Assembly (NCBI GenBank): GCA_016212705.1
Contig: JACREU010000091.1
Location: 217 to 64,216 of the forward strand
DNA length: 64,000 bases
From: Deltaproteobacteria bacterium
GTDB taxonomy: Bacteria > Desulfobacterota > GWC2-55-46
Direction of reading: 5' to 3'
The position numbers were made by a program, and so were the translations under genes. Positions 6,154-33,249 of this stretch are shown here, piece by piece; the first letter of the stretch is position 1, and every line of letters starts with the position of its first letter. The notes under the pieces were generated by a model, which ran no database searches, was not told the DNA's origin, and saw only the letters and a list, made by a program, of their open reading frames with translations.

Positions 6154-6157
6154 GTTT

Positions 6158-8526: not shown

Positions 8527-8532
8527 CGCGCC

Positions 8533-12954: not shown

Positions 12955-13765
12955 ACCTTGTCCGCCTCAGGCCTTCAGCGGCCTCGAAGAGGAGCGGGTC
13001 CAGCCCCTGCGCGGTTTCGTATTCTTCTGCGGCGCGTATATGCTCGCCCGACATTTCAAACGCCTTCCCGAGCCCGTTATGGGCCTCGGCGGAGCCGGGG
13101 GCAAGCTCGACGGCACGGGAAAGGTTCTCGATGGCTGAGGCCGGGTCTTTCTTGATGATGAACGCCTCCCCGATCAGCCTGTGGGCGTCCGCGTAATCCG
13201 GCCTGTACCTTAACGCCGTTCTGTATTCCCCGATCGCCTCATCCAGCAAGCCCGTATCCCTGTAAAGATACCCCAGGTTAATGAGCGTCTTCACGTGAGA
13301 GGGTTTTATGCCGAGGGCCGTCCTGTATTCCTTAAGCGCCTCCGGGAACCTGCCCTTCGTGTAATAGGCGTATCCGAGGTTGTTGCGGGCCTCGACTATG
13401 TCGGGTTTGAGCGCAAGGGCGATCTCGTACTTTTCAATGGCTTCGTCTATCCTTCCCCATGTGTGGAATATCGCCCCGATGTTGAAGTACGCCTTCCCGT
13501 AATACGGGTATATCCCGATGGCCAGCAAGTTTTCCTCGAGCGCGCGGTCGAGGTCGCCGTTTCCGGCAAGCACCGTAGCGTAGTTGTAATGCGGGCGGGC
13601 CTTTGACGGGGATTTGCCGACGACGTCCGCCCAGAGCGTCTCCGGGCTCTTCCAGACCGAATTCCTGTTGAACGATATGAAGGCGAGCGCGATGATGGCC
13701 GCCGCAAGCGCGAGCGATGGGAGGGGGGACTGGTCGGTCCGGGCTGTTGGGCCGTTTACGCTCAT
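12944..13765 (-). CDS. membrane-anchored TPR repeat protein
   Basis: N-terminal TM segment (LALAAAIIALAFISF) followed by about 6 TPR units (YYGKAYFNIGAIF..., ARNNLGYAYY...). Its start overlaps the stop of the upstream OMP gene (TAATG). Confidence 0.7.
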   Translation of the reverse strand: MSVNGPTARTDQSPLPSLALAAAIIALAFISFNRNSVWKSPETLWADVVGKSPSKARPHYNYATVLAGNGDLDRALEENLLAIGIYPYYGKAYFNIGAIFHTWGRIDEAIEKYEIALALKPDIVEARNNLGYAYYTKGRFPEALKEYRTALGIKPSHVKTLINLGYLYRDTGLLDEAIGEYRTALRYRPDYADAHRLIGEAFIIKKDPASAIENLSRAVELAPGSAEAHNGLGKAFEMSGEHIRAAEEYETAQGLDPLLFEAAEGLRRTRFKP

Positions 13766-15969: not shown

Positions 15970-16761
15970 TTACCAGGCGCACCTGAACCCCACGTCGTCG
16001 TAACGTCTTTCGGGGGGCGCGGCGTTCCTGAAAGGCGCCCTGACGTAGACCTGGAGCGAGTAGTGGCCCATGCCGCCCCATCCGCCGCCGCGGACCACCT
16101 TGAGCTTCTCCCCGTAATCAGGGTCCTTGAACTCGTTATTCGGGTACGGTTTGTACCAGTCCGACGTCCACTCCTGCGCGTTGCCGGACATGTCATAGGC
16201 GCCGTAGGGGCCGACCCCGTCCTTGAGCGTGCCTACCGGGAGGGTGCCGCCGTACTCGCCTATGGTGTTGACCTTCTTTATGTCGAAGTCGTTGCCCCAG
16301 GGGAAAATCCTCCCGTCCGCGCCTCTGGCGGCCTTCTCCCACTCCGCTTCCGACGGTAGCCTCCGCCCCTTCCACTTGCAGTACTCATCGGCGTCCGCCC
16401 ATGTCACGAATACCACGGGATGGTCGGAGAGGTTCGCCGGATACGACCCCGCGGACCACTGCGGCGGAGCGGTCCGCCTGGTGGCGTCTACGAACTCCTT
16501 GTACTGTCTGTTCGTCACCTCGGTCCTGTCGATATGGAACGTATCGAGTTTTATCTTCCTCTCGGGCCTCTCGTTCGCGTACCAGGGGCGCCTGTCGCCG
16601 TACTGCATGGCCTTGGCCTCCCTGTCCACCTCGTTACTGCCGATCGTGAACTCGCCCCCCGGGACCTTCACCATGTCCTCGGGCGCTGATTGGCACCCAA
16701 CGAGGGCGAGAGAGAGTGACGTAAGGATCAAATAACCGGCATTCTTTACGGAGCGCATCAA
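15970..16761 (-). CDS. FGE-sulfatase (SUMF1/EgtB/PvdO-like) domain lipoprotein
   Basis: Lipobox LALVGCQ. Motifs RLPSEAEWEKAARG, WTSDWYKPYP, VRGGGW and GFRCAW. Lacks the Cx4C active-site pair of true FGEs. Confidence 0.75.
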   Translation of the reverse strand: MMRSVKNAGYLILTSLSLALVGCQSAPEDMVKVPGGEFTIGSNEVDREAKAMQYGDRRPWYANERPERKIKLDTFHIDRTEVTNRQYKEFVDATRRTAPPQWSAGSYPANLSDHPVVFVTWADADEYCKWKGRRLPSEAEWEKAARGADGRIFPWGNDFDIKKVNTIGEYGGTLPVGTLKDGVGPYGAYDMSGNAQEWTSDWYKPYPNNEFKDPDYGEKLKVVRGGGWGGMGHYSLQVYVRAPFRNAAPPERRYDDVGFRCAW

Positions 16762-16848
16762 AAACCTCCCTGTGTTTAAAGGCCTACCCCGCGGGGGCCG
16801 GCCCGAAATGTGAAGTATTAACCGCCGTTAGCGGCTTTTTCAAGCCTT

Positions 16849-18417
16849 TCAGTCCAGGACGATCTCCCGGTCCGACGTCGCAATAACGCTGAAGCGGAAC
16901 CGCTCCCTGGTCTTGAAGTCCTGGAAATCCACAGGGTTGAAGTCGTCCGTAAAAAGCGTCTCTCCAAGGGGAAGCTCTATTTTCCTTGAAAGGAGCGCCC
17001 TTACGTCCTCCTCGAACGCTGGATGAACCCTGGCTTCGTAGGAGTCATTTATCGGCCGCTCGACGAGGGTCGCCGCGAATATCATGTTCACTACCCTTGG
17101 GGCGGGGGCGGAATACTCAACCGACGTGTAGACGTCGATACGGGGGAAGACCTCCTTCAAGGTCCGCAGGAGCGACGAGGGGGCCGCGAGGTCCTCCGGC
17201 ATATTCGACCCGACGAAGTTTATTATAAGGACCCCGTCTACTGCGAGCCTTTTTCTGACGAGCTTGAACGCCTCCAGGCTTATGAGGTGGCTCGGTGGCG
17301 TATCCCCTGAGAACGCGTCGAGGACTATTATGTCGTAAGGCTCCGTTGACGCGTTGAGGAAGTACCGGCCGTCCTCGATGAACGTCGGGTGGAGCGACTT
17401 GTCATAGGCGAAGTACCTGGCCGCCGTCAGAACGACCGAGGGGTTTATCTCCACTACGTCGGTCTTTATGCCGTAGAGCTTATGCAGCCTGTTCGGTACG
17501 ATGCCGCTCCCGAGCCCTATGACAAGGGCGCGCTTTGCCGAAGGGTTGTAAGCGCGCGAGAGCTTCTCGATGTAGTACGTGTACTTGGAGACCGAAAGCC
17601 CGGTCCTCAAGTCGACGGCGCCCTGTATCATGTTCTCAAGAAGGAACTCGCGGACCAATTGGTCTCCGTAGGTGTAATCGACGACCTTTATCTGCCCGTA
17701 GGCGCTGTCCTCGTTTACGACGAGAGCGGCCTTTGTGCCGTCGGGCCTGACGACGGACGGGAGGTCCTTCGGGAAAAGAAGGAGGACTAACGGCACCGCG
17801 ACGACCGCCAGGGCGTAGGCCTTTCTCCTGAACAGGAGCCAGTAGAGCGCCCCGATCAGGATGAGGGACGCCGACGAGAGGTAGATTATGTTATTGACGC
17901 CGATATTCGGTATGAGGATAAAGCCGGTGGATACGGTGCCGACGAAGCTCCCGGCGGTCGATACCGCGTAGAGCCAGCCGACGGTCCTCCCGATCCCGTC
18001 CCTCCCGTCGCCCATGTAGAGCTTGACGGTGTACGGCGCGACCATGCCGAGTAAAAATAGCGGCGGGCCGAAGAGGACGGTCGAGCTTACGAGCGACCCG
18101 GCGCGCAGGCCCAGGGACAGGGAGAGACCTATGACAGTCCCCTTTATGACCGGGACCGCGAGAAGGGAGAGCCCGGCGAGGAAAATGACCGTAAAGAGCG
18201 CGCCGTGGCTCCCGTATCGGTCCGCGAGCCTGCCGCCCAGCCAGTAGCCTAACGCGAGCGATACGAGCGTTACGGTTATGAGCGAGGTCCAGACGAAGAG
18301 GCTCACGCCGAAAGGCGGTCCGATGACCCTTGAGCCGATGAGCTCGACGACCATTACTATCGAGCCGCACGCGAAGGCGGTGAAGACGAGGTATTTGTTC
18401 GAGCCTTCCCCTTTCAT
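16849..18417 (-). CDS. fused polytopic membrane domain / spermidine-synthase-like (SpeE-like) protein
   Basis: About 7 N-terminal TM segments. C-terminal SAM-MTase/aminopropyltransferase-like motifs: ALVIGLGSGIV and DIIVLDAFSGD. Confidence 0.65.
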   Translation of the reverse strand: MKGEGSNKYLVFTAFACGSIVMVVELIGSRVIGPPFGVSLFVWTSLITVTLVSLALGYWLGGRLADRYGSHGALFTVIFLAGLSLLAVPVIKGTVIGLSLSLGLRAGSLVSSTVLFGPPLFLLGMVAPYTVKLYMGDGRDGIGRTVGWLYAVSTAGSFVGTVSTGFILIPNIGVNNIIYLSSASLILIGALYWLLFRRKAYALAVVAVPLVLLLFPKDLPSVVRPDGTKAALVVNEDSAYGQIKVVDYTYGDQLVREFLLENMIQGAVDLRTGLSVSKYTYYIEKLSRAYNPSAKRALVIGLGSGIVPNRLHKLYGIKTDVVEINPSVVLTAARYFAYDKSLHPTFIEDGRYFLNASTEPYDIIVLDAFSGDTPPSHLISLEAFKLVRKRLAVDGVLIINFVGSNMPEDLAAPSSLLRTLKEVFPRIDVYTSVEYSAPAPRVVNMIFAATLVERPINDSYEARVHPAFEEDVRALLSRKIELPLGETLFTDDFNPVDFQDFKTRERFRFSVIATSDREIVLD

Positions 18418-18432
18418 CTCATCGCGGGCCTT

Positions 18433-19425
18433 TTATTTTTTGTCATTCGCGCACCGGAACCCGAAGTTGTTGTTCTTCGTGGTCGGGTGGAAGAATATCC
18501 TGTTGTAGTTCGGGGAGCTTATCCCGCACTTGTACGTGGTGCAGTCGTACCAGGAGCCGCCCTTCAACACCTTGTACTTTTCCCCGTAGTTCTCGTCGGG
18601 GTGGGTGTTCCCGGGGTAGGGTTTGAACCAGCTGTCCGTCCACTCGAATGCGTTGCCGGCCATGTCGTAGAGGCCGTAAGGGCTCTTGCCGCTCTCGAAG
18701 GACCCGATCGGTAGCGTGTCCTCGTGCCCGTACTGCGGCGTGTTACCCTTTTCCTTGGCGAACTTGTCGCCCCAGGGGAATGTCCTCTTGTCAACGCCTC
18801 TGGCGGCCTTTTCCCATTCCTCCTCGGAGGGAAGGCGCTTGCCCTCCCATCTGCAGAAGTTGTCCGCGTCCTTCCATGTCACATATACGACAGGGTGGTC
18901 CTTCTTGCCCTCCGGAATATTCCCGTCCTTCCAGTGGTCCGGGGCAGGGTAGCCTGCGGCGTCGACGAAGGCCTTATAGCGCGCATTTGTTACCTCGTAT
19001 CTGTCGATGTAGAAGGCCCCGACCATCCTTGAATGCTCCGGCTGGCTCTTGGGCCACCATTCATTCGACCCCATGGTGAACTCCCCGGCAGGGATGAGCA
19101 CCATCCCCTTTGGGGCGGCCCCCTTTACCGCGCCCTTGCCGGAAGCAACGGCAAGGGTCTCGGCGTACCTGTCTATTTCATTCCGCTCCGAGGGGTCCCT
19201 GAACCTCCCGTTTATCTCCACATAGTTGTCGCTTAAGCCCGGGCCGTGGCACTCCGCGCAGGTCTCGTCCCTGGTGTAGTCCGTCGAGTACCGCCTGTCC
19301 GGCGTGTGGCAGTCCATGCACTTGGGCTCGCCTGTGGCCGGGTCGTAGTCGCTCGCCGCGCCGTAAGCGGACGTTGCGAGCGCGCAGAGGGAGACGGCAA
19401 CGGCTGATAAGAGTAGTCTTTTCAT
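18433..19425 (-). CDS. diheme c-type cytochrome fused to an FGE-sulfatase domain
   Basis: Signal peptide. Two CxxCH motifs (CMDCH, CAECH) in the N-terminal 60 aa. FGE-domain motifs follow: RLPSEEEWEKAARG, WTDSWFKPYP, LKGGSW, then C-TTYK-C (Cx4C) and GFRCAN. Confidence 0.75.
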   Translation of the reverse strand: MKRLLLSAVAVSLCALATSAYGAASDYDPATGEPKCMDCHTPDRRYSTDYTRDETCAECHGPGLSDNYVEINGRFRDPSERNEIDRYAETLAVASGKGAVKGAAPKGMVLIPAGEFTMGSNEWWPKSQPEHSRMVGAFYIDRYEVTNARYKAFVDAAGYPAPDHWKDGNIPEGKKDHPVVYVTWKDADNFCRWEGKRLPSEEEWEKAARGVDKRTFPWGDKFAKEKGNTPQYGHEDTLPIGSFESGKSPYGLYDMAGNAFEWTDSWFKPYPGNTHPDENYGEKYKVLKGGSWYDCTTYKCGISSPNYNRIFFHPTTKNNNFGFRCANDKK

Positions 19426-19453: not shown

Positions 19454-19903
19454 TTATTTCGGGGCGGCCTTGCCCTCGCGTTCGAGCTGTCTTATGAACG
19501 CGAGCACGTCCCATCTCTCTTTTTCGGACAATATCTCCTGCCACCTCGGCATGGACATCGACTCTCCGCCGACCTCTTTGTGTATCCCCTCTGTTATGGA
19601 TTTAAAGAGCTCGGCGTCGGTCTTCGACATCCTCTTCGCGTCGTTTACGAAATCAGCCGGGTGAGGTGAGAGGGCTATGCCCACTGGCCCGTCGCCCATG
19701 CCCTTTTGCCCGTGGCAGAAGTGGCAGTACCTGAAGTATATATCCCTGCCCGCCGTTGCTTCGCCGGCTCCTGCCTGCATGGCCTGAGCCGCGGCCGGCG
19801 GCTTTTCAGGCTGAGGGGGGCTCTTTTTCTCGCCGGTGCATCCGGATACGGAAAGAAGCGCCGCAAGGGAGGCGGCTATGGTTATCGCGAGCGGCTTCTG
19901 CAT
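19454..19903 (-). CDS. monoheme class I c-type cytochrome lipoprotein
   Basis: Lipobox LSVSGC. Single CHFCH motif with a distal Met candidate (SMSMP). 149 aa. Confidence 0.75.
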   Translation of the reverse strand: MQKPLAITIAASLAALLSVSGCTGEKKSPPQPEKPPAAAQAMQAGAGEATAGRDIYFRYCHFCHGQKGMGDGPVGIALSPHPADFVNDAKRMSKTDAELFKSITEGIHKEVGGESMSMPRWQEILSEKERWDVLAFIRQLEREGKAAPK

Positions 19904-19954: not shown

Positions 19955-20950
19955 TCATTTAAGGGGTGTTACGAACTCGACCTTGGAGGAATCGCGCAGG
20001 CTTTTGAGCCATCCGCTCCAGAGCCTCTTGTACTCCTTGGCTTCGAGCTCCTTTTCGAGTTTTTCCTTGTTGAGCTCCTCGAACTTCTTCTGCACCGCAG
20101 GCTTGCTTCCCTCGAGCCTTATGACATGGTAGCCGTAAATTGACATGACCGGTCCGCCGACCTCGCCGGCCTTGAGCTTCGAGGCGGCGTCGTCTATCTC
20201 AGGTATTAGCTCGCCCTTGTGCGACCAGCCCATGTCGCCGCCATTTTTAGCGAACGGGTCCTCGGAGTTCTTCTCGGCGAGCTTGGCGAAGTCCTCGCCC
20301 GCCTTCGCCTTCTCCGCTAAATCCTTCGCCTTCTTGAGCGACTCGTTCCAGACCTTCTGGCCGCCTGAAGGGTCTGCCTTGACGAGTATGGACCTTAAGT
20401 GTATCTGCTCGGGCTCCTTGAACTTCGGGAGGTTCTTCTGATAGTAGTCCTTCATGAAGGCCTCGTCGACGGTCTTTTCCGAGAGCTTCTTTGTTTCCTC
20501 AGTTTTTTTCTTGGCGAGCCTCTCAACGACCATGTCCCTCTTGAAGTCCTCCTTCAAGTCGGCGAGCGTAATCCCGCTCCTCTTCAAGACCTTCTCAATG
20601 GTCTCGCCCTTCGGGAGCTTCTTCTTGAGTTCCTTGACCCTCGCGTCTATTTCCTTAGGGTCTACGTCGTCCTGTTTCGTTTCAACTGCGGCCTTGTACA
20701 TGAGCTCGTTGTTTATGAGCTTATCGAGCGCCTGCCTCTGTATCTCCCTCATCCGTTCGTCGGAGACCGACTGGTGATATGTCATGAGAGGGAGGAGGTT
20801 GCTTGTGGCGGTATCCAGGGTCTCCCTCGTTATGACCTTTCCGTTCACCTTTACTATCACGTCCGCCGGCGAAGTGGCCGCGAACGACGCCGGGGCGAGG
20901 AGCGCGACAAAGACGGCTGTGGCGAGGAGCCTTTTTGAAAAGCTTGACAT
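19955..20950 (-). CDS. parvulin-type peptidyl-prolyl cis-trans isomerase (SurA/PrsA-like chaperone)
   Basis: Signal peptide. SurA-like N-terminal region. Parvulin motifs: HLRSILV...GGDMGW...GYHVIRLEG. Confidence 0.7.
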   Translation of the reverse strand: MSSFSKRLLATAVFVALLAPASFAATSPADVIVKVNGKVITRETLDTATSNLLPLMTYHQSVSDERMREIQRQALDKLINNELMYKAAVETKQDDVDPKEIDARVKELKKKLPKGETIEKVLKRSGITLADLKEDFKRDMVVERLAKKKTEETKKLSEKTVDEAFMKDYYQKNLPKFKEPEQIHLRSILVKADPSGGQKVWNESLKKAKDLAEKAKAGEDFAKLAEKNSEDPFAKNGGDMGWSHKGELIPEIDDAASKLKAGEVGGPVMSIYGYHVIRLEGSKPAVQKKFEELNKEKLEKELEAKEYKRLWSGWLKSLRDSSKVEFVTPLK

Positions 20951-21336
20951 GTATGGACCTCCGGGGGTTAGTGATTGGCTATTATAATATAACGGAAATA
21001 AATAATAAATCTAAAATCTTATCCTGGCGGGCGAATAAACCGGCCCAGTGCCACATTCTATATTTTCAGTTTAAAATGACGGTTATGCGATTATTAAAAA
21101 ATTTTAACCTTCCGGGCAAGAAAACATTGACAAGACCATAAGAGAAAACAAAAAGGGGGAGACGCGGGCCGTTCGCGCCTGTTTCCGCGCGTTTTGTCGC
21201 CCCTGTCCGAATATGGAGGAGTATACATCAGGGTATGCTGTGTCGAGGTGATGATTCGCGAGGTATCCCCCCCCCCCTGGGTGGCGCCGTGGGCTTATGC
21301 AGGCACATCATCATAAGGGAGTGGCGCCGGATGGAG

Positions 21337-21373
21337 GCAAAAAAAAAGAAGGGCCGGTTTCCCGGCCCTTCTT
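21337..21373 (-). terminator. Rho-independent terminator of the tetraheme cytochrome gene
   Basis: 12-bp GC-rich stem AAGAAGGGCCGG/CCGGCCCTTCTT with a 4-nt loop. It is followed on the minus strand by a T9 run, about 30 nt after the stop codon. Confidence 0.85.
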
Positions 21374-21404
21374 TGCACCTTGCAGTCTCGCGACCGCAGA
21401 GTGA

Positions 21405-22295
21405 TTACTTCTGGTGGCAGGTTCTGCAGAGACCAGAACCGGTGTTGCCGCCGACCCTTCTAAGGAACAGGCCGTTGGACTCAGCTTCCTGGTCCGCGGT
21501 CACGTTCGAGTAGGTGGAGTCGATTTCCTGCCAAGACTTGTTGTTGAAGTGCGGATCGTGGCAGCTGGAGCACTCAACCTTGGAGGACCTGAGGAGGTCG
21601 GCGATCGTCGCCGAGTTGGAGACGAAGCCCTTTACCGCCCAGAGGTTCTTGGTGAGGTTGCCGTTGTCGTAGGTCGCGGCAGAGGTGTTGAGCTCAGAGG
21701 TAAGGTCGATACCGCTGATGGTTACGTTGGTGGCCCTCAGACCAGCGGCCGTCCCGGCGGCATAGGTCACGGAAACCGGGTGGTCGTTGGAGAGGTTAAG
21801 GCCGATGTTCAACCTGCTGGAGGTCATGAAGTCGGAGACGACTGACCCGAAGTCATAGAAGGTGTAGCCACGGTCCGAACCGCCGTTGACGACGCCGGAC
21901 TTACCAGGGGCGTTGACAATGTTGTCGAAGGTGGTTACGCCGTCATGGCATGAAAGACAGGCAAGCGAAGTCGAGCCGATGTCGGTGTTGAGGATCGAGG
22001 TACCCGCGATCGTCGAGCCATAGGCCGTGAAGGATGTCGGAGCGGAGGTGCCCCTGTTCCACATCGGCTTAAGGTTGTTGGCGGTGTTGGTGTGGTGAGG
22101 CGTGTGACAGAATACGCAGACTTCGGTCGTGCCCTGGGCGCCGATGTGCATCGAGAAGCCGCCGAGGTTGTGCCTGGAAGACGCGATGCCTGACGCGGCG
22201 TCGCCGTTGGCGTAGGTGTCAACTGCTGAAGCTGTACCGGCGGTGATGAAACCGATTGAGGCGACCGCTACTGCGATTGCGAGAAACCTTTTCAT
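21405..22295 (-). CDS. secreted tetraheme c-type cytochrome (doubled-CXXCH family)
   Basis: Sec signal (TASA/VD). Four CxxCH motifs: CVFCHTPHH, CLSCH, CSSCHDPH, CRTCH. SRHNL precedes heme 1 as in paired-CXXCH proteins. Gly/Ser/Thr/Asn-rich. Good RBS (AAAGGAG). Confidence 0.85.
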   Translation of the reverse strand: MKRFLAIAVAVASIGFITAGTASAVDTYANGDAASGIASSRHNLGGFSMHIGAQGTTEVCVFCHTPHHTNTANNLKPMWNRGTSAPTSFTAYGSTIAGTSILNTDIGSTSLACLSCHDGVTTFDNIVNAPGKSGVVNGGSDRGYTFYDFGSVVSDFMTSSRLNIGLNLSNDHPVSVTYAAGTAAGLRATNVTISGIDLTSELNTSAATYDNGNLTKNLWAVKGFVSNSATIADLLRSSKVECSSCHDPHFNNKSWQEIDSTYSNVTADQEAESNGLFLRRVGGNTGSGLCRTCHQK

Positions 22296-22371
22296 ATGAG
22301 ACTCCTTTCAATCTTTAAAGTTGTTTTTTTAGATACCTTGTTTCGTTTCGTCTCTGGCATTTTTTTTGGGT

Positions 22372-22422
22372 AAAAAAAATGCCTTCAGTTACCACCACCA
22401 GTCATCGGTAGTACCAAGGCAT
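22372..22422 (-). terminator. leader (attenuator-type) terminator inside the 5' UTR of the tetraheme cytochrome gene
   Basis: RNA AUGCCUU-GG-UACUACC ... GGUGGUA-ACUG-AAGGCAU forms two 7-bp helices, directly followed by U8. It lies about 75 nt upstream of the start codon. Confidence 0.45.
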
Positions 22423-22485
22423 CCATCGCCTGGAGGTCTGTCAGGGCCCGCCGTGAACCTTGTCAGCCTTCATTAAGTTACCACC

Positions 22486-22513
22486 ATTATACTCTTAAGT
22501 TAAAAACTGTCAA
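22486..22513 (-). promoter_or_regulatory. consensus sigma70 promoter of the tetraheme cytochrome gene
   Basis: Minus strand reads TTGACA-N16-TATAAT (plus strand tgtcaa at 22508-22513, attata at 22486-22491). This implies a leader of about 185 nt. Confidence 0.7.
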
Positions 22514-22677
22514 TAGGAAAATTAACAGGTTTTTAATAATTTTTTATGGAAGGGCTAATATTGTGTAAGTTGTTGTTTTTATTAAGTAAATATCTTTTTT
22601 GTTGTGCCATTTTGCCTTTTGGCCGGCCTTTTGAGGCCCTCTTCGCGTGTAAAAAGCCTTTTGTAAAAGTGCCTTCT

Positions 22678-22713
22678 CCCCTCCTTACCAAGGAGGGGCA
22701 AGGGGAGGTCGTC
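22678..22713. repeat. GC-rich hairpin repeat (CCCCTCCTT-ACC-AAGGAGGGG + CAAGGGGAGGTCGTC tail), family copy 1
   Basis: 9-bp perfect stem. Related copies lie at 30455, 34979 and 58140. Further small palindromes follow (22732-22754, 22764-22780, 22784-22806). Confidence 0.7.
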
Positions 22714-22824
22714 TTGAAATCACCCCACCCGGCCTCCCATTGTAGAGGGGAGGCGATTTACTCCTGCGCGCAAGCGCGCAACAAGGCCTTCAATTAAAAG
22801 GCCTTGCTTTTTGAAGGGCGGTCC

Positions 22825-22860
22825 AAAAAAAAAGCCCGGCGGGCTTGTGCCTGCCGGGCT
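22825..22860 (-). terminator. Rho-independent terminator of the NHL-repeat gene
   Basis: Stem GCCCGGCGGGC/GCCTGCCGGGC (one mismatch), loop TTGT, followed on the minus strand by T9. Confidence 0.75.
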
Positions 22861-22881
22861 GGATAATGCCAGGTGAGCCGC

Positions 22882-23922
22882 TTACTTCTTAATAACAGGC
22901 ACGCTCGTCCTCACTTTTGCCTTGTCCCCGAGGTACTCGAACTTCTCGATCCGCCTGTTCCAGGAGTCTACTACATATATATAGTCGTCCTTATCGACCG
23001 TGAGGCCCGCGGGCAGTATCATCTGCCCCCTGTCGCTCCCGTAGGAGGCGAACGCGAGGAGTATCTGCCCCTCCTCGTTGAATATCTGGATATTATTGAA
23101 GGCCGCGTCCACGACGTATATATGCCCTTCGCTGTCGACCCCGATGCCCTTGGGTCTGGCGAACATCCCCGGGGCGTCCCCGAACTGGCCGAAGGCCCGT
23201 ATGAACTTGCCTTCGGTATCGAATATCTGGACCCTGCCGTTCATGGTGTCTACTACGTAGAGGTTGCCCTTTGTGTCAACGGCTATGTGGGACGGGAAGT
23301 TGAACTCGCCCTCCTCCTTGCCCCTCTTGCCGATAGTGCTTATGTGCTTCAATGTCTCGGTATCGAAGACCTTTATGTTATGCGTGTGCGTGTCCGCGAC
23401 GTATATCTTCTTGCGCTCGAAGTCGGAGGCGATCCCGCTCGGCTGCTTGAAGGGCTGGTCCGCGACGAGGTTGCCGACGACCTTGCCGGTCGGGTCGAGG
23501 ACCGTAACCGAGTCGGTCTGGGAGTCCGATACATATATCCTGCCGTTTACGTCCGTCGCAACGCCTATGGGCTTGTAAAAGAGCTTCGCGCCCATCGCCG
23601 CGAGGGACGTGCCGGTCATGTTTACGGTGTCGAATATAAAGACGTCGGCGCTCGAGGTGTCGGTTACATAAATCTTGCCCTTTATGTCGGTATGGACGCC
23701 CATGGGCTTTCTAAGGGAGCCGCCGCCCTCGCCGCCGAGGAGGATGTCCATAGCCGCCGAGCCCTTCTTGAAGTCGGCTCCGCCGCGAAAGTCCCGGATA
23801 TATTTTATCCGGGGCTCGTCCGGGGGCTCGGGCCACAAGAGGTCCGGGAGCGGCGGCGCGGCGCAACCGTATATCAGGATGGGAAGGGCGATTGTGACGA
23901 GAACCTTGAATATCTTCTTCAT
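22882..23922 (-). CDS. NHL-repeat six-bladed beta-propeller lipoprotein
   Basis: Lipobox LIYGCA. Six or seven repeats of the G.IYV.D type roughly every 45 aa (IYVTD, IYVSD, IYVAD, LYVVD, IYVVD x2). Confidence 0.8.
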   Translation of the reverse strand: MKKIFKVLVTIALPILIYGCAAPPLPDLLWPEPPDEPRIKYIRDFRGGADFKKGSAAMDILLGGEGGGSLRKPMGVHTDIKGKIYVTDTSSADVFIFDTVNMTGTSLAAMGAKLFYKPIGVATDVNGRIYVSDSQTDSVTVLDPTGKVVGNLVADQPFKQPSGIASDFERKKIYVADTHTHNIKVFDTETLKHISTIGKRGKEEGEFNFPSHIAVDTKGNLYVVDTMNGRVQIFDTEGKFIRAFGQFGDAPGMFARPKGIGVDSEGHIYVVDAAFNNIQIFNEEGQILLAFASYGSDRGQMILPAGLTVDKDDYIYVVDSWNRRIEKFEYLGDKAKVRTSVPVIKK

Positions 23923-24140
23923 GTCGGACTCGTTCCTTGTTGTGTATTCTTTGTTTGTGTATCCATTACGGAAGCTTCCAAGGCCATTATCTAACTTTAA
24001 AATGATACTATGCCGAATCCGTCAAAGTCAAGGGGAAGGATGGTCCTGGCCGGACGGACAAAGTTCATATCGAAACGGCTTTGCCTGCCCTTGCTCTATA
24101 ACTTCCGAAGGACATTGCCGCCACGCCAGGGGGAGGGCGC

Positions 24141-24773
24141 CTACTTGAAAGTCTCCCTCTCAAGGGACTGCCCCTTTAGGATTATGTGGCACCTTACGCA
24201 GTTCTCCCTCGGCCAGAAGGTGAAGGCGACCTTGCCGTGGCACCTGCCGCACCACTGCCCCTTGAATATCTCGTCCATGGAGATCGGGTTCGCGCCGGCT
24301 TCAGGTATGAATATCTTCGGGTGGCAGTTGTTGCAACTCAGCCAGTAGGTGTGTATCGAGTGAGGGAAGATGACGTTAGCCATGAGCGGGACCTTGGCCT
24401 CTATGAAAATATTAAGGTTAAGCGGCTGGTCCTCGGGAACGCCGGGTTCGAGCGAGCCCCTCGGGTTTATATAGCCGTTTACAACCGCCGCGGTCCAGTT
24501 GACGTTGCCGGATGGGTCCTTGGGGAGCGAGTCGAGGGCCTTTATGTCAGAGGTGCCTTCCTTTATGTGAGACCTTCGTGCGACCTCTTTATAGAACTTC
24601 TCGTAATAGTCGTCGAGGTTGACCTTTTCATCGACCTTCTTCGGCATATCGGCGTTTACGAGGGTGTCGAAGTCATCGGCCATGCCGCCGCATCCTGTGA
24701 GGAGAGCCGCGCAGAAAAGCGCGAAAAAGAGGAGGCGGGCTGTATCGTTAAGGGACTTCCGCACCGGTTGCAC
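24141..24773 (-). CDS. c7-type triheme cytochrome domain lipoprotein
   Basis: Lipobox LLTGCGG. FPHSIH...CNNCH...GQWCGRCHGKVAF...CVRCH matches the triheme c7/c3-type pattern. Confidence 0.75.
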   Translation of the reverse strand: MQPVRKSLNDTARLLFFALFCAALLTGCGGMADDFDTLVNADMPKKVDEKVNLDDYYEKFYKEVARRSHIKEGTSDIKALDSLPKDPSGNVNWTAAVVNGYINPRGSLEPGVPEDQPLNLNIFIEAKVPLMANVIFPHSIHTYWLSCNNCHPKIFIPEAGANPISMDEIFKGQWCGRCHGKVAFTFWPRENCVRCHIILKGQSLERETFK

Positions 24774-24902: not shown

Positions 24903-26141
24903 GTGAAAAGGGTACTTAGTACGGCAATGCCTGGAAAAAAAACAATATGGTCCGTAGGCGGCGGCAAGGGCGGCGTGGGGAAAAGCATCGCCACCGCCAA
25001 TATAGGTTGCGCACTGGCCCAGAGGGGCAATAAGGTTATACTTGTCGACGCGGATCTGGGCGGCGCGAACCTGCACACCTACTTCGGCATAAGGCACCCG
25101 GAAAAGGGTCTCGACGATTTTTTGAAGGGCAGGGCAGGGTCCCTTGAAGATACCGCGCTTGAAACCGATGTCAAGGGCTTGCGCCTCATAACCGGCGGTG
25201 GCGAGTTCCTGGGGATAGCCAACCCGGCATTTGCCCAGAAGCAGAGGCTCCTCTCCCATATAAAAAAGCTCGAAGCCGACTTCATACTCGTAGACCTCGG
25301 CGCCGGCTCCACCTACAACATCCTCGACTTCTTCGCCGTCTCGAACGAGGGGATAGTCGTCCTCGTGCCTGAGCCCGCGGCTATCCAGAACGCCTATATA
25401 TTCCTCAAAAGTTTCGTTTACAGGAGGCTCCAGCGCCTCTTCGCCGAAAACGAAGGCATCTCCCGCATGGTCAGGGACGCGACGGACGCGAGGAGCGGCT
25501 CGTCGGTCAAGACCTTCTCCGACCTCTGCGAAAAGATAGCCTCTAAGGACAGGGAGGCCGCGAAGTCCGCGATAACCGAGATAAAGTCCTTCAGGCCAAA
25601 GGTCCTCTTGAACATGGCCGCCTCCAGGGAGGACCTGAAGGTCGTCGACGCCTTCAGGTCCGCCTCGAATACGTTCCTCGGCCTTGAGACCGATTACATA
25701 GGCGTCCTCTATTCCAGGCCGTCCGTCAAGGCCGCGGCCAGGCGCATGAGGCCGTTCATGTGCGACAGGACTGCGGACGACGCCCACAGGGACATGGGCG
25801 TCATAATAGAGAGCCTCCTTAAGGCCGCGGGAGAGGAGCCCATTGTCCGCCCCGTTCCCCAGAAGGAAGACGCGGCCCATGTACAGGAGGTATTCGGGTT
25901 CAACGACAACGTGAGCCACGCAGGCGCAGTCTACCATGTCCAGACAGAGGTCCAGGGCGGCAGTCTTCCCTCGATAGAGACGATCATATACTGCGGCGGC
26001 AGGATATATTTTTCAAAGAAGTCGCTCTGGAACGACATCGCGGAGGCGAACGGCGGGCTTGAGATAAAGGACTACGCCACGCGCCAGCACAGGGCCGCGA
26101 TGGCGGCTATAAAGATGGACAAGATCACACTCAAGGGCTGA
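24903..26141 (+). CDS. MinD/ParA-family P-loop ATPase with an unrecognised ~120-aa C-terminal extension
   Basis: Deviant Walker A GGGKGGVGKS. VLVDADLGGANLH and FILVDLGAG motifs. GTG start at 24903, or ATG at 24927. Confidence 0.75.
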   Translation: MKRVLSTAMPGKKTIWSVGGGKGGVGKSIATANIGCALAQRGNKVILVDADLGGANLHTYFGIRHPEKGLDDFLKGRAGSLEDTALETDVKGLRLITGGGEFLGIANPAFAQKQRLLSHIKKLEADFILVDLGAGSTYNILDFFAVSNEGIVVLVPEPAAIQNAYIFLKSFVYRRLQRLFAENEGISRMVRDATDARSGSSVKTFSDLCEKIASKDREAAKSAITEIKSFRPKVLLNMAASREDLKVVDAFRSASNTFLGLETDYIGVLYSRPSVKAAARRMRPFMCDRTADDAHRDMGVIIESLLKAAGEEPIVRPVPQKEDAAHVQEVFGFNDNVSHAGAVYHVQTEVQGGSLPSIETIIYCGGRIYFSKKSLWNDIAEANGGLEIKDYATRQHRAAMAAIKMDKITLKG

Positions 26142-26145
26142 ATAT

Positions 26146-26844
26146 ATGGGGTACGGCGTGGTGTTAATAGGCAAGGGAAGCGCCTTTACGGGCGATTTCA
26201 GGAAGCTCGTCGAGGACTGCGGCTATGAGGTCAGGGCCGGGGGAATGGACCAACAGGCGGATTTGAGAGACCTCTGCGTCTACGAGGTCGCGGACAAGGA
26301 CGACCTTAAGGGCCTCATGGAAATGGGGGGCCGCCTCCAGGCCGAGCCGTTTCTCGTCTTCACCGCTCTTGAGTCGCTTGACTGGCTCCAGCCATTGAGG
26401 GAGGCCGGGCTCATGGGCGTCGTCTCGCCCGCGTCTTCAGCCGAGGACGCCTCTTTCCTCTTGAACAAGGCCCTCTTCTATAAAAAGATGCTCAAAAGGA
26501 ACCCGAGGGTACAGGTGAACCTCCCGGTGGAGCTTAAAAGCGGGCCGCGCACCATAAGGACGAACGCGTCGCTATTAAGCAGGGACGGGATGTTCATCGT
26601 CACCTTGAACCCGCTCCCGGTGAACGCGCTCTGCGAGCTGAGGTTTTCACTGCCGGGCAGACCCCTTGAGACCGCCGCGAGGGTCCTCTATAATATCTCC
26701 ATAAACAAGGACCTGAACATCATCGCGGACCCGAAAGACCCATTCAAGAGGCTCGTCTCCCACCCGGGCATGGCAGTATTCTTTACGGGGCTATCGGACG
26801 CGGAGAAAGAAGAGATAGACGGGTATATAAAGGCGCTGGAATAA
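26146..26844 (+). CDS. receiver-like N-terminal domain + PilZ-like C-terminal domain protein
   Basis: The C-terminal half (KRNPRVQVNLPVEL...NASLLSRDGMFIV) resembles PilZ. The RxxxR / DxSxxG signatures are degenerate. The N-terminal half has a CheY-like pattern without a clear phospho-Asp. Confidence 0.5.
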   Translation: MGYGVVLIGKGSAFTGDFRKLVEDCGYEVRAGGMDQQADLRDLCVYEVADKDDLKGLMEMGGRLQAEPFLVFTALESLDWLQPLREAGLMGVVSPASSAEDASFLLNKALFYKKMLKRNPRVQVNLPVELKSGPRTIRTNASLLSRDGMFIVTLNPLPVNALCELRFSLPGRPLETAARVLYNISINKDLNIIADPKDPFKRLVSHPGMAVFFTGLSDAEKEEIDGYIKALE

Positions 26845-27074
26845 AGGCTATCTCTAAAAATTGTTCTTTTTCCTGACTGCTATGCGCAGGGCTAAAGTTG
26901 GCATGGAGTCTCCAGGCAAGTCAATTCTCCAGCCGTTTGATACGGATTTGCCAGTCCGGCGGGACTGCGTCAGGACGGAAATAAAAATGCTCACATATTC
27001 ACATATATGCTCCGCTTTTTATTTCCGCCCTTCCTTGACCTCAGAAAAAATTCCTAATTTTTAGAGGTAGCCTT
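26844..27074. repeat. 231-bp AT-rich MITE-like / structured element bounded by 19-bp imperfect inverted repeats
   Basis: AAGGCTATCTCTAAAAATT (26844-26862) versus AATTTTTAGAGGTAGCCTT (27056-27074), 18/19 complementary. Internal 11-12-bp hairpin: (C)GGAAATAAAAA (26978-26989) / TTTTTATTTCC(G) (27016-27027). Confidence 0.5.
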
Positions 27075-27088
27075 AAAATAATCTCCCC

Positions 27089-32368: not shown

Positions 32369-32980
32369 ATGAAAAGGGCATTAATGATCTTGCTCAGCAT
32401 TGGGGTAGTATCCTTTGCTGCACAGGCTGAGGCGACGCTTATAACCTATGATTTCAACAGTTTGGCCAGCGGTACTTATACGGAGGCCGCTTTCAACACC
32501 AACTTCCTCGGCGTAGCTTTCGACAACACTGGAGGCAGTAATTTCGAAATTCAAACCGTTTCCCTGGACCCTGATTTTTCCGGTCAGGCGGTGCTTAATG
32601 CACCGTATAGTACCAGCGGCAACAGCACGATCGCTACCCTCTCATCGCTGACGGATTACGTAAGCGTCACTATAGGAGATTATGACGCGGATGCAGACAA
32701 CCTGTATCTTTATGCCTACGATTCGGCCAACGCCCTTCTCGATTCGGCCTTCTTTTACAACCCCGCGTCTTCGTATGCCGGCAATACCCTCATCGTTTCA
32801 ACAGGGTCGGCGTCGATCGCCTGGGTTGAGTTCTACGGCGTAGGCGTGAATAACAACAGCGTCTATTGGGATAACTTTACCTTCAATGACACCTCTTCCG
32901 TTCCCGAACCCTCCACCATGCTTCTCCTTGGAAGCGGCCTGGTAGGGTTTGGCTTGGTGAGGAGAAAGTTCAAGGGATAG
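32369..32980 (+). CDS. PEP-CTERM sorting-domain secreted protein
   Basis: Signal peptide. C-terminus VPEPSTMLLLGSGLVGFGLVRRKFKG (PEP motif + TM + basic tail). Confidence 0.85.
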   Translation: MKRALMILLSIGVVSFAAQAEATLITYDFNSLASGTYTEAAFNTNFLGVAFDNTGGSNFEIQTVSLDPDFSGQAVLNAPYSTSGNSTIATLSSLTDYVSVTIGDYDADADNLYLYAYDSANALLDSAFFYNPASSYAGNTLIVSTGSASIAWVEFYGVGVNNNSVYWDNFTFNDTSSVPEPSTMLLLGSGLVGFGLVRRKFKG

Positions 32981-33027
32981 ACGCCGGTGGAGGGTCTCAA
33001 TCCCGACAGGATCGAGCGCAAGACCAA

Positions 33028-33068
33028 CAAACCCCGGCCTTTTATCAAGGCCGGGGTTTGTTTTATTT
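33028..33068 (+). terminator. Rho-independent terminator of the PEP-CTERM gene
   Basis: 14-bp stem CAAACCCCGGCCTT/AAGGCCGGGGTTTG, loop TTATC, followed by TTTTATTT. Confidence 0.85.
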
Positions 33069-33101
33069 GGAGCGAAGCGGAAAGAAGTGCAAAATCAGCG
33101 G

Positions 33102-33196: not shown

Positions 33197-33249
33197 ATCT
33201 AAATACCGCATATAGACAAACATCTGCTCCAAATTGAAAATCAATATAT

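What the first reader, a model, noticed from the sequence alone, without database searches (positions are those of the whole stretch)
21405..24773. Highly signalled secreted tetraheme cytochrome with NHL beta-propeller and c7 triheme partners: possible extracellular electron-transfer (nanowire-type) locus
The 296-aa tetraheme gene has a perfect TTGACA/TATAAT promoter, a strong RBS and a textbook terminator. Its codon choices differ from its neighbours (Ile as ATC and Gly as GGT, rather than the ATA/GGG/GGC used elsewhere). That pattern is consistent with very high expression or with foreign origin. The protein is Gly/Ser/Thr/Asn-rich with 6 non-motif His residues, enough for bis-His ligation of all four hemes. 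Immediately upstream on the same strand are an NHL-repeat propeller lipoprotein and a c7-type triheme lipoprotein. From memory, Geobacter omcS lies next to an NHL-repeat gene, and tetraheme OmcE-type proteins polymerise into conductive filaments. That makes a filament-forming or surface-exposed role worth testing.
Basis: partly seen in the sequence, partly recalled or inferred. Interest (0 to 1): 0.6.

Follow-up and report, generated by a model that had tools for sequence, protein, structure and literature searches.

The report
OmcE-type cytochrome nanowire gene cluster
The gene encodes a four-heme protein of the same family as the Geobacter OmcE "nanowire" subunit, it sits among conserved helper genes and is by far the most transcribed gene of this stretch in aquifer samples, so an uncultured groundwater bacterium probably builds heme wires on its surface.

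Summary
These are four CXXCH motifs, six extra His, the only perfect TTGACA-N16-TATAAT in 64 kb, a strong RBS, a 13-bp terminator, and a codon bias unique among 52 ORFs.

The 296-aa protein belongs to the OmcE family. A family profile matches PDB 7TFS (G. sulfurreducens OmcE filament) at E=8e-47 and 9YUQ (D. soudanensis OmcE) at 7e-43. The AlphaFold model's only Foldseek hit is 7TFS. Eight His (four proximal, four distal) are invariant in 110 homologues.

The upstream NHL lipoprotein is 37% identical to the NHL lipoprotein upstream of Geobacter omcE. In about 50 of 81 related loci from several phyla, an OmcE-like gene is followed by a SurA-like PPIase. In most loci inspected, a 580-825-aa candidate outer-membrane protein comes next, with c7 cytochromes and NHL propellers nearby.

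In five groundwater metatranscriptomes, RNA contig depth is 8-111 over this gene. Elsewhere in the window it is 0-14.

Filament formation and extracellular location are inferred, not shown.

A conserved structured 5' leader with no Rfam match precedes the gene.

Verdict: a new member of a known kind.

The parts
21405..22295 (-). OmcE-family tetraheme cytochrome, 296 aa. Sec signal 1-24; hemes at C60/C63-H64, C113/C116-H117, C242/C245-H246 and C290/C293-H294; distal His H42, H67, H172, H249.
   Evidence: sequence. (7TFS E=1.4e-15 for the single sequence and 8e-47 for the profile; 9YUQ 7e-43). (8 His and 8 Cys invariant in 110 homologues). (pLDDT 83.7; Foldseek hits 7TFS only). (30.8% identity to G. 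sulfurreducens OmcE, E=2e-20).
22486..22513 (-). Sigma-70 consensus promoter: -35 TTGACA at 22513..22508, 16-nt spacer, -10 TATAAT at 22491..22486. A conserved AT-rich block lies upstream at about 22514..22550.
   Evidence: unique perfect match in the window. (conserved in L001, L002, L007, L013). RNA contigs reach 22450 and no further.
22338..22484 (-). Conserved structured 5' leader of four hairpins. The last, P4, is the palindrome GGCAU8-ACCC-A8UGCC at 22383..22356. It is a candidate cis-regulatory or mRNA-stabilising element.
   Evidence: nhmmer hits lie only upstream of OmcE-like genes. (every full-length covariance-model hit with E<=0.03 in 1.36 Mb lies directly upstream of an OmcE-like gene). 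(covariation). (no Rfam family).
22301..22310 (-). Ribosome-binding site, TGAAAGGAGT (AGGAG at 22306..22302).
   Evidence: AAGGAGT is conserved in the six orthologue leaders; the L001 tandem paralogue has AAGGGGT.
21336..21374 (-). Intrinsic terminator of the cytochrome gene (13-bp stem, T9 run).
   Evidence: RNA contig coverage stops at 21405-21420.
22882..23922 (-). NHL-repeat beta-propeller lipoprotein, 346 aa, lipobox LIYGC. It has its own terminator at 22846..22832.
   Evidence: NHL 3.6e-35, 5 repeats. (terminator). (36.7% identity over 327 aa, E=2e-63, to the NHL lipoprotein upstream of G. sulfurreducens omcE). (co-occurs in most related loci).
24141..24773 (-). Triheme c7-type lipoprotein, 210 aa, lipobox LLTGC, three CXXCH in the C-terminal 70 aa.
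   Evidence: PF14522 1.4e-12; TIGR04257 3.3e-18. (c7 domains lie near OmcE-like genes in about 40 loci).
19955..20950 (-). SurA-like periplasmic peptidyl-prolyl isomerase/chaperone, 331 aa.
   Evidence: Rotamase 8.5e-21, SurA_N_3 1.3e-11. (a PPIase directly follows the OmcE-like gene in about 50 of 81 loci from several phyla).
19454..19903 (-). Monoheme class-I cytochrome c lipoprotein, 149 aa.
   Evidence: Syntenic in L001, L002, L011 and L018.
18433..19425 (-). Secreted protein with an N-terminal diheme segment and an FGE-sulfatase-fold domain, 330 aa.
   Evidence: FGE-sulfatase 8.4e-59. (2 CXXCH). Syntenic in the clade.
16849..18417 (-). Polytopic membrane protein (about 6 TM helices) with a C-terminal spermidine-synthase-like domain, 522 aa.
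   Evidence: Syntenic in the clade.
15970..16761 (-). FGE-sulfatase-fold lipoprotein, 263 aa.
   Evidence: Syntenic in the clade.
13765..15774 (-). 669-aa secreted Ser/Thr-rich protein ending ...RVFVRVW. It is a candidate large outer-membrane beta-barrel (export pore or anchor).
   Evidence: signal peptide is the only hydrophobic segment. (no Pfam or PDB match). (homologous, hhalign probability 98.4%, E=1e-14, to the 580-825-aa proteins that follow the PPIase in distant OmcE-like clusters; most inspected end in Phe, Tyr or Trp). The barrel fold itself was not tested.
12944..13765 (-). TPR-repeat protein, 273 aa, the last conserved gene of the block.

Best explanation
The 296-aa protein is the subunit of an OmcE-type extracellular cytochrome filament.

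Transcription. The gene is transcribed on its own from a consensus sigma-70 promoter. The mRNA is about 1.1 kb and carries a conserved structured leader, a strong RBS, translation-optimised codons and an efficient terminator. This gives very high output.

Maturation. The precursor is exported by Sec. Four c-type hemes are attached at the four CXXCH motifs. Each heme is bis-His ligated: proximal H64, H117, H246 and H294; distal H42, H67, H172 and H249.

Assembly. As in the solved OmcE filaments, subunits are expected to join head to tail. One distal His, probably H42 on the N-terminal arm, would ligate a heme of the neighbouring subunit. The result would be a continuous insulated chain of alternating parallel and T-shaped heme pairs.

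Proposed roles of the flanking envelope proteins:
- The SurA-like PPIase would keep the coil-rich subunit competent for export.
- The 669-aa outer-membrane protein and the NHL propeller lipoprotein would form the export or anchoring site.
- The c7 triheme and monoheme lipoproteins would pass periplasmic electrons to the filament.

Shown here: family membership, conserved ligands, conserved gene neighbourhood, monocistronic high transcription in situ.

Inferred: polymerisation, trans ligation, location, the roles of the helpers, and the direction of electron flow.
For: Homology:
- phmmer versus PDB gives 7TFS at 1.4e-15 and 9YUQ at 1.9e-12.
- A 110-sequence profile gives 7TFS at 8.2e-47 over residues 5-232 of 232, and 9YUQ at 7.3e-43.
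- BLASTP to G. sulfurreducens OmcE gives 30.8% identity, E=2e-20.

Ligands: H42, H64, H67, H117, H172, H246, H249, H294 and all 8 Cys are invariant in 110 homologues. Each aligns with a His or Cys of OmcE.

Fold: the AlphaFold2 model has pLDDT 83.7 and pTM 0.82 and is mostly coil. Its only Foldseek PDB hit is 7TFS (E=1e-8, probability 1.0, TM 0.63 normalised to the target).

Literature: OmcE and OmcS use a His from the neighbouring subunit (PMC9473688, PMC12307469). omcE clusters carry beta-propeller lipoproteins and a large beta-barrel gene (bioRxiv 10.1101/2025.10.22.684050).

Context:
- The NHL lipoprotein is 36.7% identical to the one upstream of Geobacter omcE, and a similarly long gap precedes the cytochrome gene in both.
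- The order c7-NHL-OmcE-PPIase-cyt c-FGE-SpeE-like-FGE-669 aa-TPR is conserved in L001 and L002. L011 has the same genes in order through the 669-aa protein, and L018, cut within the cytochrome gene, has the downstream part.
- OmcE-like followed by a PPIase recurs in about 50 loci from Pseudomonadota, Campylobacterota, Nitrospirota, Aquificota and Bacteroidota. In most loci inspected a large protein comes next, with c7 domains and NHL propellers nearby.

Expression:
- Codon bias is shared by the 91% and 71% orthologues but not by a tandem paralogue.
- RNA contig depth over the two coding-sequence bins (21378..22319) is 7.6-11.9 in X7. In one search it is 12-19 (X9), 30-54 (X11), 40-52 (X12) and 97-111 (X13).
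- The whole window was laid for X12 and X13. The maxima elsewhere are about 2 (X12) and 12 (X13).
- For X9 and X11, 12.9-46.9 kb was laid. The maxima elsewhere are about 14 (X9) and 1 (X11).
Against: - No filament, heme stain, proteome or localisation data exist for this protein or any close relative.
- The protein shares only about 31% identity with OmcE. It is 64 aa longer, and the extra residues lie in non-heme regions of unknown effect on packing.
- The cluster is not the Geobacter one. The two 330-370-aa multiheme cytochromes of omcE clusters are absent.
- The 669-aa protein shows no convincing homology to the Geobacter 750-aa protein, and its barrel fold was not modelled.
- Only one propeller gene is present, whereas two are reported for minimal omcE clusters.
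- RNA evidence comes from assembler contigs of related strains (mostly 85-95% identity), not from read counts. In run X9 another part of the window reaches a similar depth (14 versus 19).
- The physiological need for cytochrome filaments is itself disputed for Geobacter (PMC11077965 title; PMC13194489).
Confidence: 0.68

Rival explanations
1. The protein has the OmcE fold but does not polymerise. It acts as a monomeric secreted, outer-surface or periplasmic tetraheme electron carrier, and the neighbouring genes are a generic envelope electron-transfer set.
For: More than 3,000 cluster representatives match the family, and only two members have been shown to form filaments. The insertions relative to OmcE could block the interface. 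The cluster lacks the Geobacter multiheme pair and a proven barrel.
Against: The N-terminal-arm His (H42) is invariant across 110 homologues, as expected if all eight His are needed. There is a tight, phylum-spanning linkage with a dedicated chaperone, a large secreted outer-membrane candidate and propeller lipoproteins. Very high expression fits a structural polymer. There is no similarity to the c3 fold.
Confidence: 0.22
2. It is the same filament, but electrons flow inwards. It would then be an uptake wire for Fe(II), reduced sulfur minerals or a syntrophic partner, rather than a reductive outlet.
For: Homologous PPIase-type clusters occur in lithotroph lineages, namely Gallionella, Thiobacillus, Sulfurimonas, Sulfuritalea and Persephonella. 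The cluster includes a class-I monoheme cytochrome c of the kind that often feeds oxidases. Heme wires are reversible in principle.
Against: Nothing in the window fixes the direction. The closest characterised relatives, in Geobacter and Desulfuromonas, are metal reducers. The host is an uncultured groundwater member of the former Deltaproteobacteria.
Confidence: 0.3
3. The unusual codon use marks a recently acquired foreign gene rather than high expression.
For: Ile and Gly codon choice differ sharply from all 51 other ORFs.
Against: - GC and GC3 are the same as in the neighbours, and Arg usage (AGG) follows the genome.
- The gene sits at the same place in a gene order conserved down to 48% protein identity.
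- Orthologues keep the bias while a tandem paralogue in L001 does not.
- Transcripts are abundant.
- The favoured codons (ATC, GGT, ACC, AAC) are the usual translationally preferred ones (general knowledge).
Confidence: 0.03

Closest known systems
OmcE of Geobacter sulfurreducens (GSU0618; filament structure PDB 7TFS)
   Same: - Tetraheme protein with a Sec signal.
- The same order of four CXXCH motifs and four distal His (HxL near the N terminus, CxxCHxxH twice, sNDHP).
- Mostly coil.
- The only Foldseek hit.
- An NHL lipoprotein gene directly upstream (37% identical), followed by a gap of about 580 nt.
- A large secreted protein with no Pfam match in the cluster.
   Different: - About 31% identity, and 296 versus 232 aa, with extra segments after H172 and between hemes 3 and 4.
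- The Geobacter cluster has two 330-370-aa multiheme cytochromes and no adjacent PPIase, FGE-fold or SpeE-like genes.
- The large proteins are not detectably homologous.
- Filament formation is shown for OmcE only.
OmcE homologue of Desulfuromonas soudanensis WTL (DSOUD_2954; PDB 9YUQ; bioRxiv 10.1101/2025.10.22.684050)
   Same: It is the second-best PDB match (profile E=7e-43), with the same heme motifs and His set. That paper reports OmcE homologues with a propeller and a barrel nearby in five phyla, including Thermodesulfobacteriota.
   Different: The loops that mediate antiparallel bundling there are not conserved in the family, so bundling cannot be predicted here. That minimal cluster type has two multiheme cytochromes and two propellers.
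OmcS and the osc (omcS companion) cluster of G. sulfurreducens (PDB 6EF8; Shen et al. 2025 as summarised in PMC13194489)
   Same: The logic is the same: a highly expressed filament cytochrome with companion genes proposed for folding, secretion and morphology. There is a weak profile match to part of OmcS (E=2e-10). Trans His ligation occurs in both OmcS and OmcE.
   Different: OmcS is a hexaheme protein of 407 aa with a different fold. The osc proteins were not compared here.
Five-heme OmcE-like proteins (proposed new nanowire family, bioRxiv 10.1101/2025.10.22.684050)
   Same: Close relatives of the window protein (P0097, P0117, P0119, P0120; 56-59% identity) carry a fifth CXXCH in the segment before the sNDHP motif.
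   Different: The window protein has four hemes only.
Periplasmic class III cytochromes c3/c7 (e.g. PpcA)
   Same: They are small multiheme, bis-His proteins. The neighbouring 210-aa lipoprotein carries a genuine c7 triheme domain.
   Different: The 296-aa protein has no PF02085 match (its weak PF14522 hit covers only the last two heme motifs), no c3-like fold hit and no similarity to PpcA.

Membership tests
OmcE-type cytochrome nanowire subunit | Significant full-length sequence similarity to a subunit with a solved filament structure | tested here: met
   7TFS at E=1.4e-15 (single sequence) and 8.2e-47 over residues 5-232 (profile). 9YUQ at 7.3e-43. BLASTP gives 30.8% identity, E=2e-20.
OmcE-type cytochrome nanowire subunit | Four CXXCH motifs plus four further conserved His, enough for bis-His ligation of four hemes | tested here: met
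   All 8 Cys and H42, H64, H67, H117, H172, H246, H249 and H294 are invariant in 110 homologues. All align with Cys or His of OmcE.
OmcE-type cytochrome nanowire subunit | OmcE-like, mostly coil fold | tested here: met
   The AlphaFold2 model has pLDDT 83.7. Its only Foldseek PDB hit is 7TFS: E=1e-8, TM 0.63 normalised to the target and 0.45 to the query. The model has no hemes, so this match is moderate.
OmcE-type cytochrome nanowire subunit | Secretion signal | tested here: met
   N-terminal hydrophobic segment 1-19 with an ASA-V cleavage site and no lipobox. This was read from the sequence; no predictor was run.
OmcE-type cytochrome nanowire subunit | Head-to-tail polymerisation with one heme ligated by a His of the next subunit | not testable with these tools
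   No multimer or heme-aware prediction was available. The claim rests on homology (PMC9473688; PMC12307469).
OmcE-type cytochrome nanowire subunit | Extracellular location | not testable with these tools
   Only the signal peptide and the neighbouring outer-membrane candidate support it.
omcE gene cluster (as described for Desulfuromonadia) | Beta-propeller lipoprotein gene next to the subunit gene | tested here: met
   The NHL lipoprotein at 22882..23922 is 36.7% identical (E=2e-63) to the one upstream of G. sulfurreducens omcE. Only one propeller is present here, whereas two are reported for minimal clusters.
omcE gene cluster (as described for Desulfuromonadia) | Large outer-membrane beta-barrel gene in the cluster | tested here: inconclusive
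   The 669-aa secreted protein has a C-terminal aromatic residue and no TM helices. It is homologous to the large proteins of the PPIase-type clusters but not convincingly to the Geobacter 750-aa family. It has no Pfam or PDB match, and no structure model was made.
omcE gene cluster (as described for Desulfuromonadia) | Two multiheme cytochrome genes (330-370 aa) upstream | tested here: not met
   No homologues of the Geobacter pair were found. Instead the cluster has a triheme c7 lipoprotein, a monoheme c and a diheme FGE-fold protein.
Class III cytochrome c3 (periplasmic tetraheme) | Match to the c3 family profile or a compact c3 fold | tested here: not met
   There is no PF02085 hit for the 296-aa protein and no c3 structure among the sequence or fold hits.
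OmcS-type hexaheme nanowire subunit | Six hemes and the OmcS fold | tested here: not met
   Four hemes only. The sole similarity is a partial profile match to 6EF8 (E=2e-10), and there is no Foldseek hit.

The most novel reading that the evidence does not exclude
Two linked claims make up this reading.

1. The conserved 147-nt leader is a new cis-acting regulatory RNA, either a riboswitch or a processing/stability element, that controls nanowire-subunit output.
2. The PPIase, the 580-825-aa outer-membrane protein, the c7 cytochrome and the NHL propeller form a dedicated assembly and secretion machine for OmcE-like filaments. This machine would be distinct from the Geobacter omcE and osc sets and spread across at least five phyla. 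In this clade it would be extended by FGE-fold lipoproteins and a SpeE-like membrane protein.

Together with the in-situ RNA data, this would make cytochrome wires one of the main products of uncultured aquifer bacteria.
Probability: 0.3. Interest if true: 0.7.

Novelty: new member of a known kind. Interest (0 to 1): 0.5.

Why it matters
Cytochrome nanowires have been shown structurally in only a few cultured organisms, and their ecological weight is debated. This locus contributes four things.

- It places an OmcE-family subunit in an uncultured groundwater lineage.
- It shows that this gene far outstrips its neighbours in transcript contigs from aquifer metatranscriptomes of two studies.
- It defines a gene set that recurs with OmcE-like genes in many phyla: a SurA-like PPIase, a large outer-membrane candidate, c7 cytochromes and NHL propellers. 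Some of the carriers are cultured isolates such as Aromatoleum toluolicum T and Noviherbaspirillum sp. ST 5-3, so the open question of how such filaments are exported becomes testable.
- It reveals a conserved leader RNA that could be a handle on nanowire regulation.

Tried and rejected
- Rfam scans of the window and of 8 related loci, at gathering scores, and of 20900-25000 at E<=1, found no known RNA family. In particular there is no c-di-GMP or cGAMP riboswitch upstream of the gene.
- The first AlphaFold run, with 46 close homologues, gave pLDDT 44 and was discarded. Only the 110-sequence run was used.
- The 669-aa protein could not be linked to the Geobacter 750-aa cluster protein. hhalign gave at best 74% probability, and only over the N-terminal 90 residues including the signal peptide.
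- The 669-aa family has no PDB or Pfam match.
- The PCC3/PCC4 porin-cytochrome clusters of Fe(II) oxidisers (PMC5566968) were read as a possible identity for the proteobacterial relatives. They have different components and are not the same system.
- N-glycosylation sequons are not enriched. There are six N-X-S/T, against about 5 expected from composition (hand estimate).
- The window holds no second OmcE paralogue and no remnant of one, unlike L001.
- A leader peptide is unlikely. The short ORFs in the leader are not conserved in frame (read).
- Foreign origin of the gene was rejected (see rivals).
- The residue that OmcE donates in trans could not be retrieved, because the 2022 paper is not held. 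The assignment to H42 is therefore an inference.

Full report
OBSERVATION. The ORF at 21405..22295 on the minus strand encodes 296 aa. It has an N-terminal Sec signal (MKRFLAIAVAVASIGFITAGTASA/VD). Its eight cysteines all lie in four CXXCH motifs. It has ten histidines, six of them outside the motifs. The mature part is 42% Ser, Thr, Gly and Asn.

The promoter TTGACA-16-TATAAT at 22513..22486 scores 12 of 12. It is the only perfect match in the 64-kb window; 100 shuffles gave none, and about 0.02 are expected analytically. AAAGGAG lies 6 nt before the ATG. A 13-bp stem followed by a T9 run lies at 21374..21345. A second terminator at 22846..22832 closes the upstream NHL gene, so the cytochrome gene is its own transcription unit.

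The codon claim holds. Ile ATA is 0/14 here against 450/774 in 27 other genes (p=6e-6). Gly GGT is 9/30 against 44/1015 (p=7e-6). GC and GC3 are unchanged. No other of 52 ORFs shows this pattern. The two upstream genes are an NHL-repeat lipoprotein and a triheme c7 lipoprotein.

WHAT THE PROTEIN IS. A sequence search of all PDB chains puts the G. sulfurreducens OmcE filament (7TFS, E=1.4e-15) and the D. soudanensis OmcE bundle (9YUQ, E=1.9e-12) first, with nothing else significant. The family is large:
- 2,030 hits in the 90% clusters.
- 3,257 cluster representatives at E<=1e-3.

A 110-sequence alignment has these invariant columns: C60, C63, H64, C113, C116, H117, C242, C245, H246, C290, C293, H294, plus H42, H67, H172 and H249. 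That is four proximal and four distal histidines, the set described for OmcE homologues (bioRxiv 10.1101/2025.10.22.684050). The profile of that alignment matches 7TFS at 8.2e-47 over essentially the full chain and 9YUQ at 7.3e-43. OmcS matches only in part (2e-10).

AlphaFold2 with a shallow alignment failed (pLDDT 44). With the deep alignment it gave pLDDT 83.7 and pTM 0.82, and a mostly coil chain. Foldseek against the PDB returned 7TFS as the only hit (E=1e-8, probability 1.0, TM 0.63 normalised to the target) and no c3-like fold.

Against G. sulfurreducens OmcE fetched here, identity is 30.8% (E=2e-20). The extra 64 residues lie after H172 and between hemes 3 and 4.

NEIGHBOURHOOD. All genes on the minus strand from 24773 down to 12944 encode envelope proteins:
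- c7 triheme lipoprotein.
- NHL propeller lipoprotein.
- The cytochrome itself.
- SurA-like PPIase.
- Monoheme cytochrome c lipoprotein.
- A secreted diheme FGE-fold protein.
- A polytopic SpeE-like membrane protein.
- An FGE-fold lipoprotein.
- A 669-aa secreted Ser/Thr-rich protein ending in ...RVFVRVW.
- A TPR protein.

This order is kept in relatives whose cytochrome is 91% and 71% identical (L001, L002). L011 (48%) has the same genes in order through the 669-aa protein, and L018, cut within the cytochrome gene, has the downstream part.

A scan of species-representative genomes found 505 relatives, of which 80 were kept. In about 50 of the 81 loci then in hand, the OmcE-like gene is followed directly by a SurA-like PPIase, with c7 domains and NHL propellers within 10 kb. 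The loci carrying such clusters come from:
- Pseudomonadota, including Gallionella, Thiobacillus, Aromatoleum and Noviherbaspirillum.
- Campylobacterota (Sulfurimonas).
- Nitrospirota.
- Aquificota (PPIase and propeller nearby on the opposite strand).
- Bacteroidota.

In most of the 26 loci inspected, the gene after the PPIase encodes a 580-825-aa protein that usually ends in Phe, Tyr or Trp. These proteins are homologous to the window's 669-aa protein (hhalign probability 98.4%, E=1e-14).

COMPARISON WITH THE GEOBACTER CLUSTER. The G. sulfurreducens omcE locus and four related loci read as follows: ppcA, resB, ccsB, two multiheme cytochromes, an NHL lipoprotein, a gap of about 240-580 nt (578 nt in G. 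sulfurreducens), omcE, a 713-752-aa protein with no Pfam match, then glycosyltransferases.

The window's NHL protein is 36.7% identical to the Geobacter one (E=2e-63). A gap of 586 nt separates the NHL gene from the cytochrome gene here too.

The two Geobacter multiheme cytochromes have no counterpart here. The two large proteins are not convincingly related. Geobacter has no PPIase at this position.

The locus is therefore an OmcE-family cluster of a different, PPIase-containing layout, not a copy of the Desulfuromonadia one.

Beyond the TPR and HEAT genes lie four TPR-tailed proteins with 7-9 predicted membrane helices, and a GT2 glycosyltransferase. This recalls the glycosylation genes next to freshwater omcE clusters (same preprint). 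No glycosylation evidence was obtained, and the number of sequons is about what chance gives.

EXPRESSION. The codon bias is conserved in the orthologues:
- L001: ATA 1/14, GGT 9/30.
- L002: GGT 7/33, GGG 0/33.
- The tandem paralogue in L001 lacks it: ATA 10/18, GGT 1/30.

This argues for selection on translation of the main subunit and not for recent transfer.

The sequence occurs in groundwater and aquifer metagenomes and metatranscriptomes. RNA contigs of five runs from two studies were laid on the window. They cover 21405..22450 at these word depths over the two coding-sequence bins:
- X7: 7.6-11.9.
- X9: 12-19; X11: 30-54; X12: 40-52; X13: 97-111.

The rest of the cluster shows 0-6. The highest depth elsewhere is:
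- X12: about 2, over the whole window.
- X13: about 12, over the whole window, from patchy pieces of about 80% identity.
- X9: about 14, over 12.9-46.9 kb.
- X11: about 1, over 12.9-46.9 kb.

Neighbour-gene contigs of 96-99% identity exist at depth 2-4. The contrast is therefore not only an effect of sequence divergence.

Coverage ends at 22430-22450, just inside the start site predicted from the -10 box, and near the stop codon at the other end.

Caveats: these are assembler contigs of related strains, not read counts, and no housekeeping gene of the same genome was available for scaling.

THE LEADER. The 5' untranslated region of about 185 nt is conserved at the nucleotide level in relatives whose proteins are only 45-91% identical. 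A sequence profile hits only directly upstream of OmcE-like genes. A covariance model searched over 1.36 Mb gave 13 strong matches and 5 weak ones. Every full-length match with E<=0.03 lies directly upstream of an OmcE-like gene on the same strand. The only other hits are reverse-strand matches to the palindromic last hairpin and one match at E=0.52.

The predicted fold has four hairpins. On an independent MAFFT alignment:
- 89.6% of cells pair, against 83.3% in shuffles.
- 10 pairs show double changes, against 5.7 in shuffles.
- Slid controls pair at 45-62%.

On the model-fitted alignment the figures are 93.4% and 14 pairs, but that alignment leans towards the structure. Rfam has no match. 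The leader is present in the abundant RNA. One RNA contig ends in adapter sequence at about 22385, the foot of the last hairpin. That could mark a processed, hairpin-protected 5' end. The function of the leader is unknown, and few independent sequences support it.

MECHANISM.

Shown:
- OmcE-family membership.
- The complete set of heme ligands.
- Conserved linkage to a chaperone, a large secreted outer-membrane candidate, a propeller and c7 cytochromes.
- Monocistronic, very high transcription in situ.

Inferred from the solved OmcE filaments and the literature (PMC9473688, PMC12307469):
- Head-to-tail polymerisation, with one distal His donated to the next subunit. I favour H42 because it sits on the N-terminal arm, as His16 does in OmcS. 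The His16 detail is from memory, and the OmcE residue could not be looked up.
- Export through the large outer-membrane protein, aided by the PPIase and the propeller.
- Electron supply by the c7 and monoheme lipoproteins.

The direction of electron flow is open, because related clusters sit in both metal reducers and lithotrophic oxidisers.

RIVALS.
- A non-polymerising carrier with the OmcE fold remains possible (about 0.2).
- Foreign origin of the gene is rejected.

NOVELTY. OmcE homologues with a propeller and a barrel nearby have been reported in five phyla, including Thermodesulfobacteriota (bioRxiv 10.1101/2025.10.22.684050). This is therefore a new member of a known kind.

What I did not find described in the papers I read:
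- The PPIase-type layout.
- The clade-specific FGE-fold and SpeE-like genes.
- The leader RNA.
- The in-situ expression contrast.

Noticed in passing
window 22338..22484 (-): A conserved structured 5' leader lies upstream of the OmcE-like gene: four hairpins, covariation in P1 and P3, and no Rfam family. It is found only upstream of OmcE-like genes in related loci and is a candidate new cis-regulatory RNA. One RNA contig ends in adapter at about 22385, the foot of the last hairpin.
   Followed up: yes
whole window (27 genes pooled): The genome-wide codon use is unusual for a 58% GC, GC3 0.79 genome. ATA makes up 58% of Ile codons and AGG 58% of Arg codons. The cytochrome gene drops ATA but keeps AGG.
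   Followed up: partly
window 24903..26844 (+): A divergently transcribed gene pair: a MinD/ParA-like ATPase with a C-terminal RomY-like domain (NF053858, 2.8e-17) and a PilZ-domain protein. The pair is syntenic with the cluster in L001, L002 and L013. It may provide a c-di-GMP-linked regulatory or positioning input.
   Followed up: no
window 4249..12008 (+): Four paralogous-looking proteins with 7-9 predicted membrane helices and C-terminal TPR repeats surround a GT2 glycosyltransferase. The membrane domains have no Pfam match. This may be a glycosylation or exopolysaccharide module next to the nanowire cluster.
   Followed up: partly
window 15970..19425 (-): Two FGE-sulfatase-fold envelope proteins, one with an N-terminal diheme segment, flank a polytopic SpeE-like membrane protein. 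They are conserved inside the cluster in this clade only. The same fold occurs in the T9SS ring lipoprotein PorK/GldK (NCBIfam hit 2.6e-31). Their role here is unknown.
   Followed up: partly
L001 11314..12204; proteins P0097, P0117, P0119, P0120: Close relatives carry a second, tandem OmcE-like paralogue without the codon bias. Other relatives have a fifth CXXCH motif. The window has a single four-heme copy and no remnant of a second.
   Followed up: yes
window 26965..27075 (intergenic, between the PilZ gene and the phosphoribosyltransferase gene): Short matches (33-74 nt) to RNA contigs of depth 10-35 in several metatranscriptomes overlie an AT-rich inverted repeat, GGACGGAAATAAAAA...TTTTTATTTCCGCCC. 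No tRNA or Rfam family is found there. This may be a small RNA or a 3' end.
   Followed up: partly
window 1341..4061 (-): A 906-aa cytoplasmic-looking protein with no Pfam match.
   Followed up: no
window 32369..34947 (+): A PEP-CTERM sorting-signal protein is followed by a sulfatase. This hints at an exosortase-dependent surface or exopolysaccharide system in the same genome.
   Followed up: no
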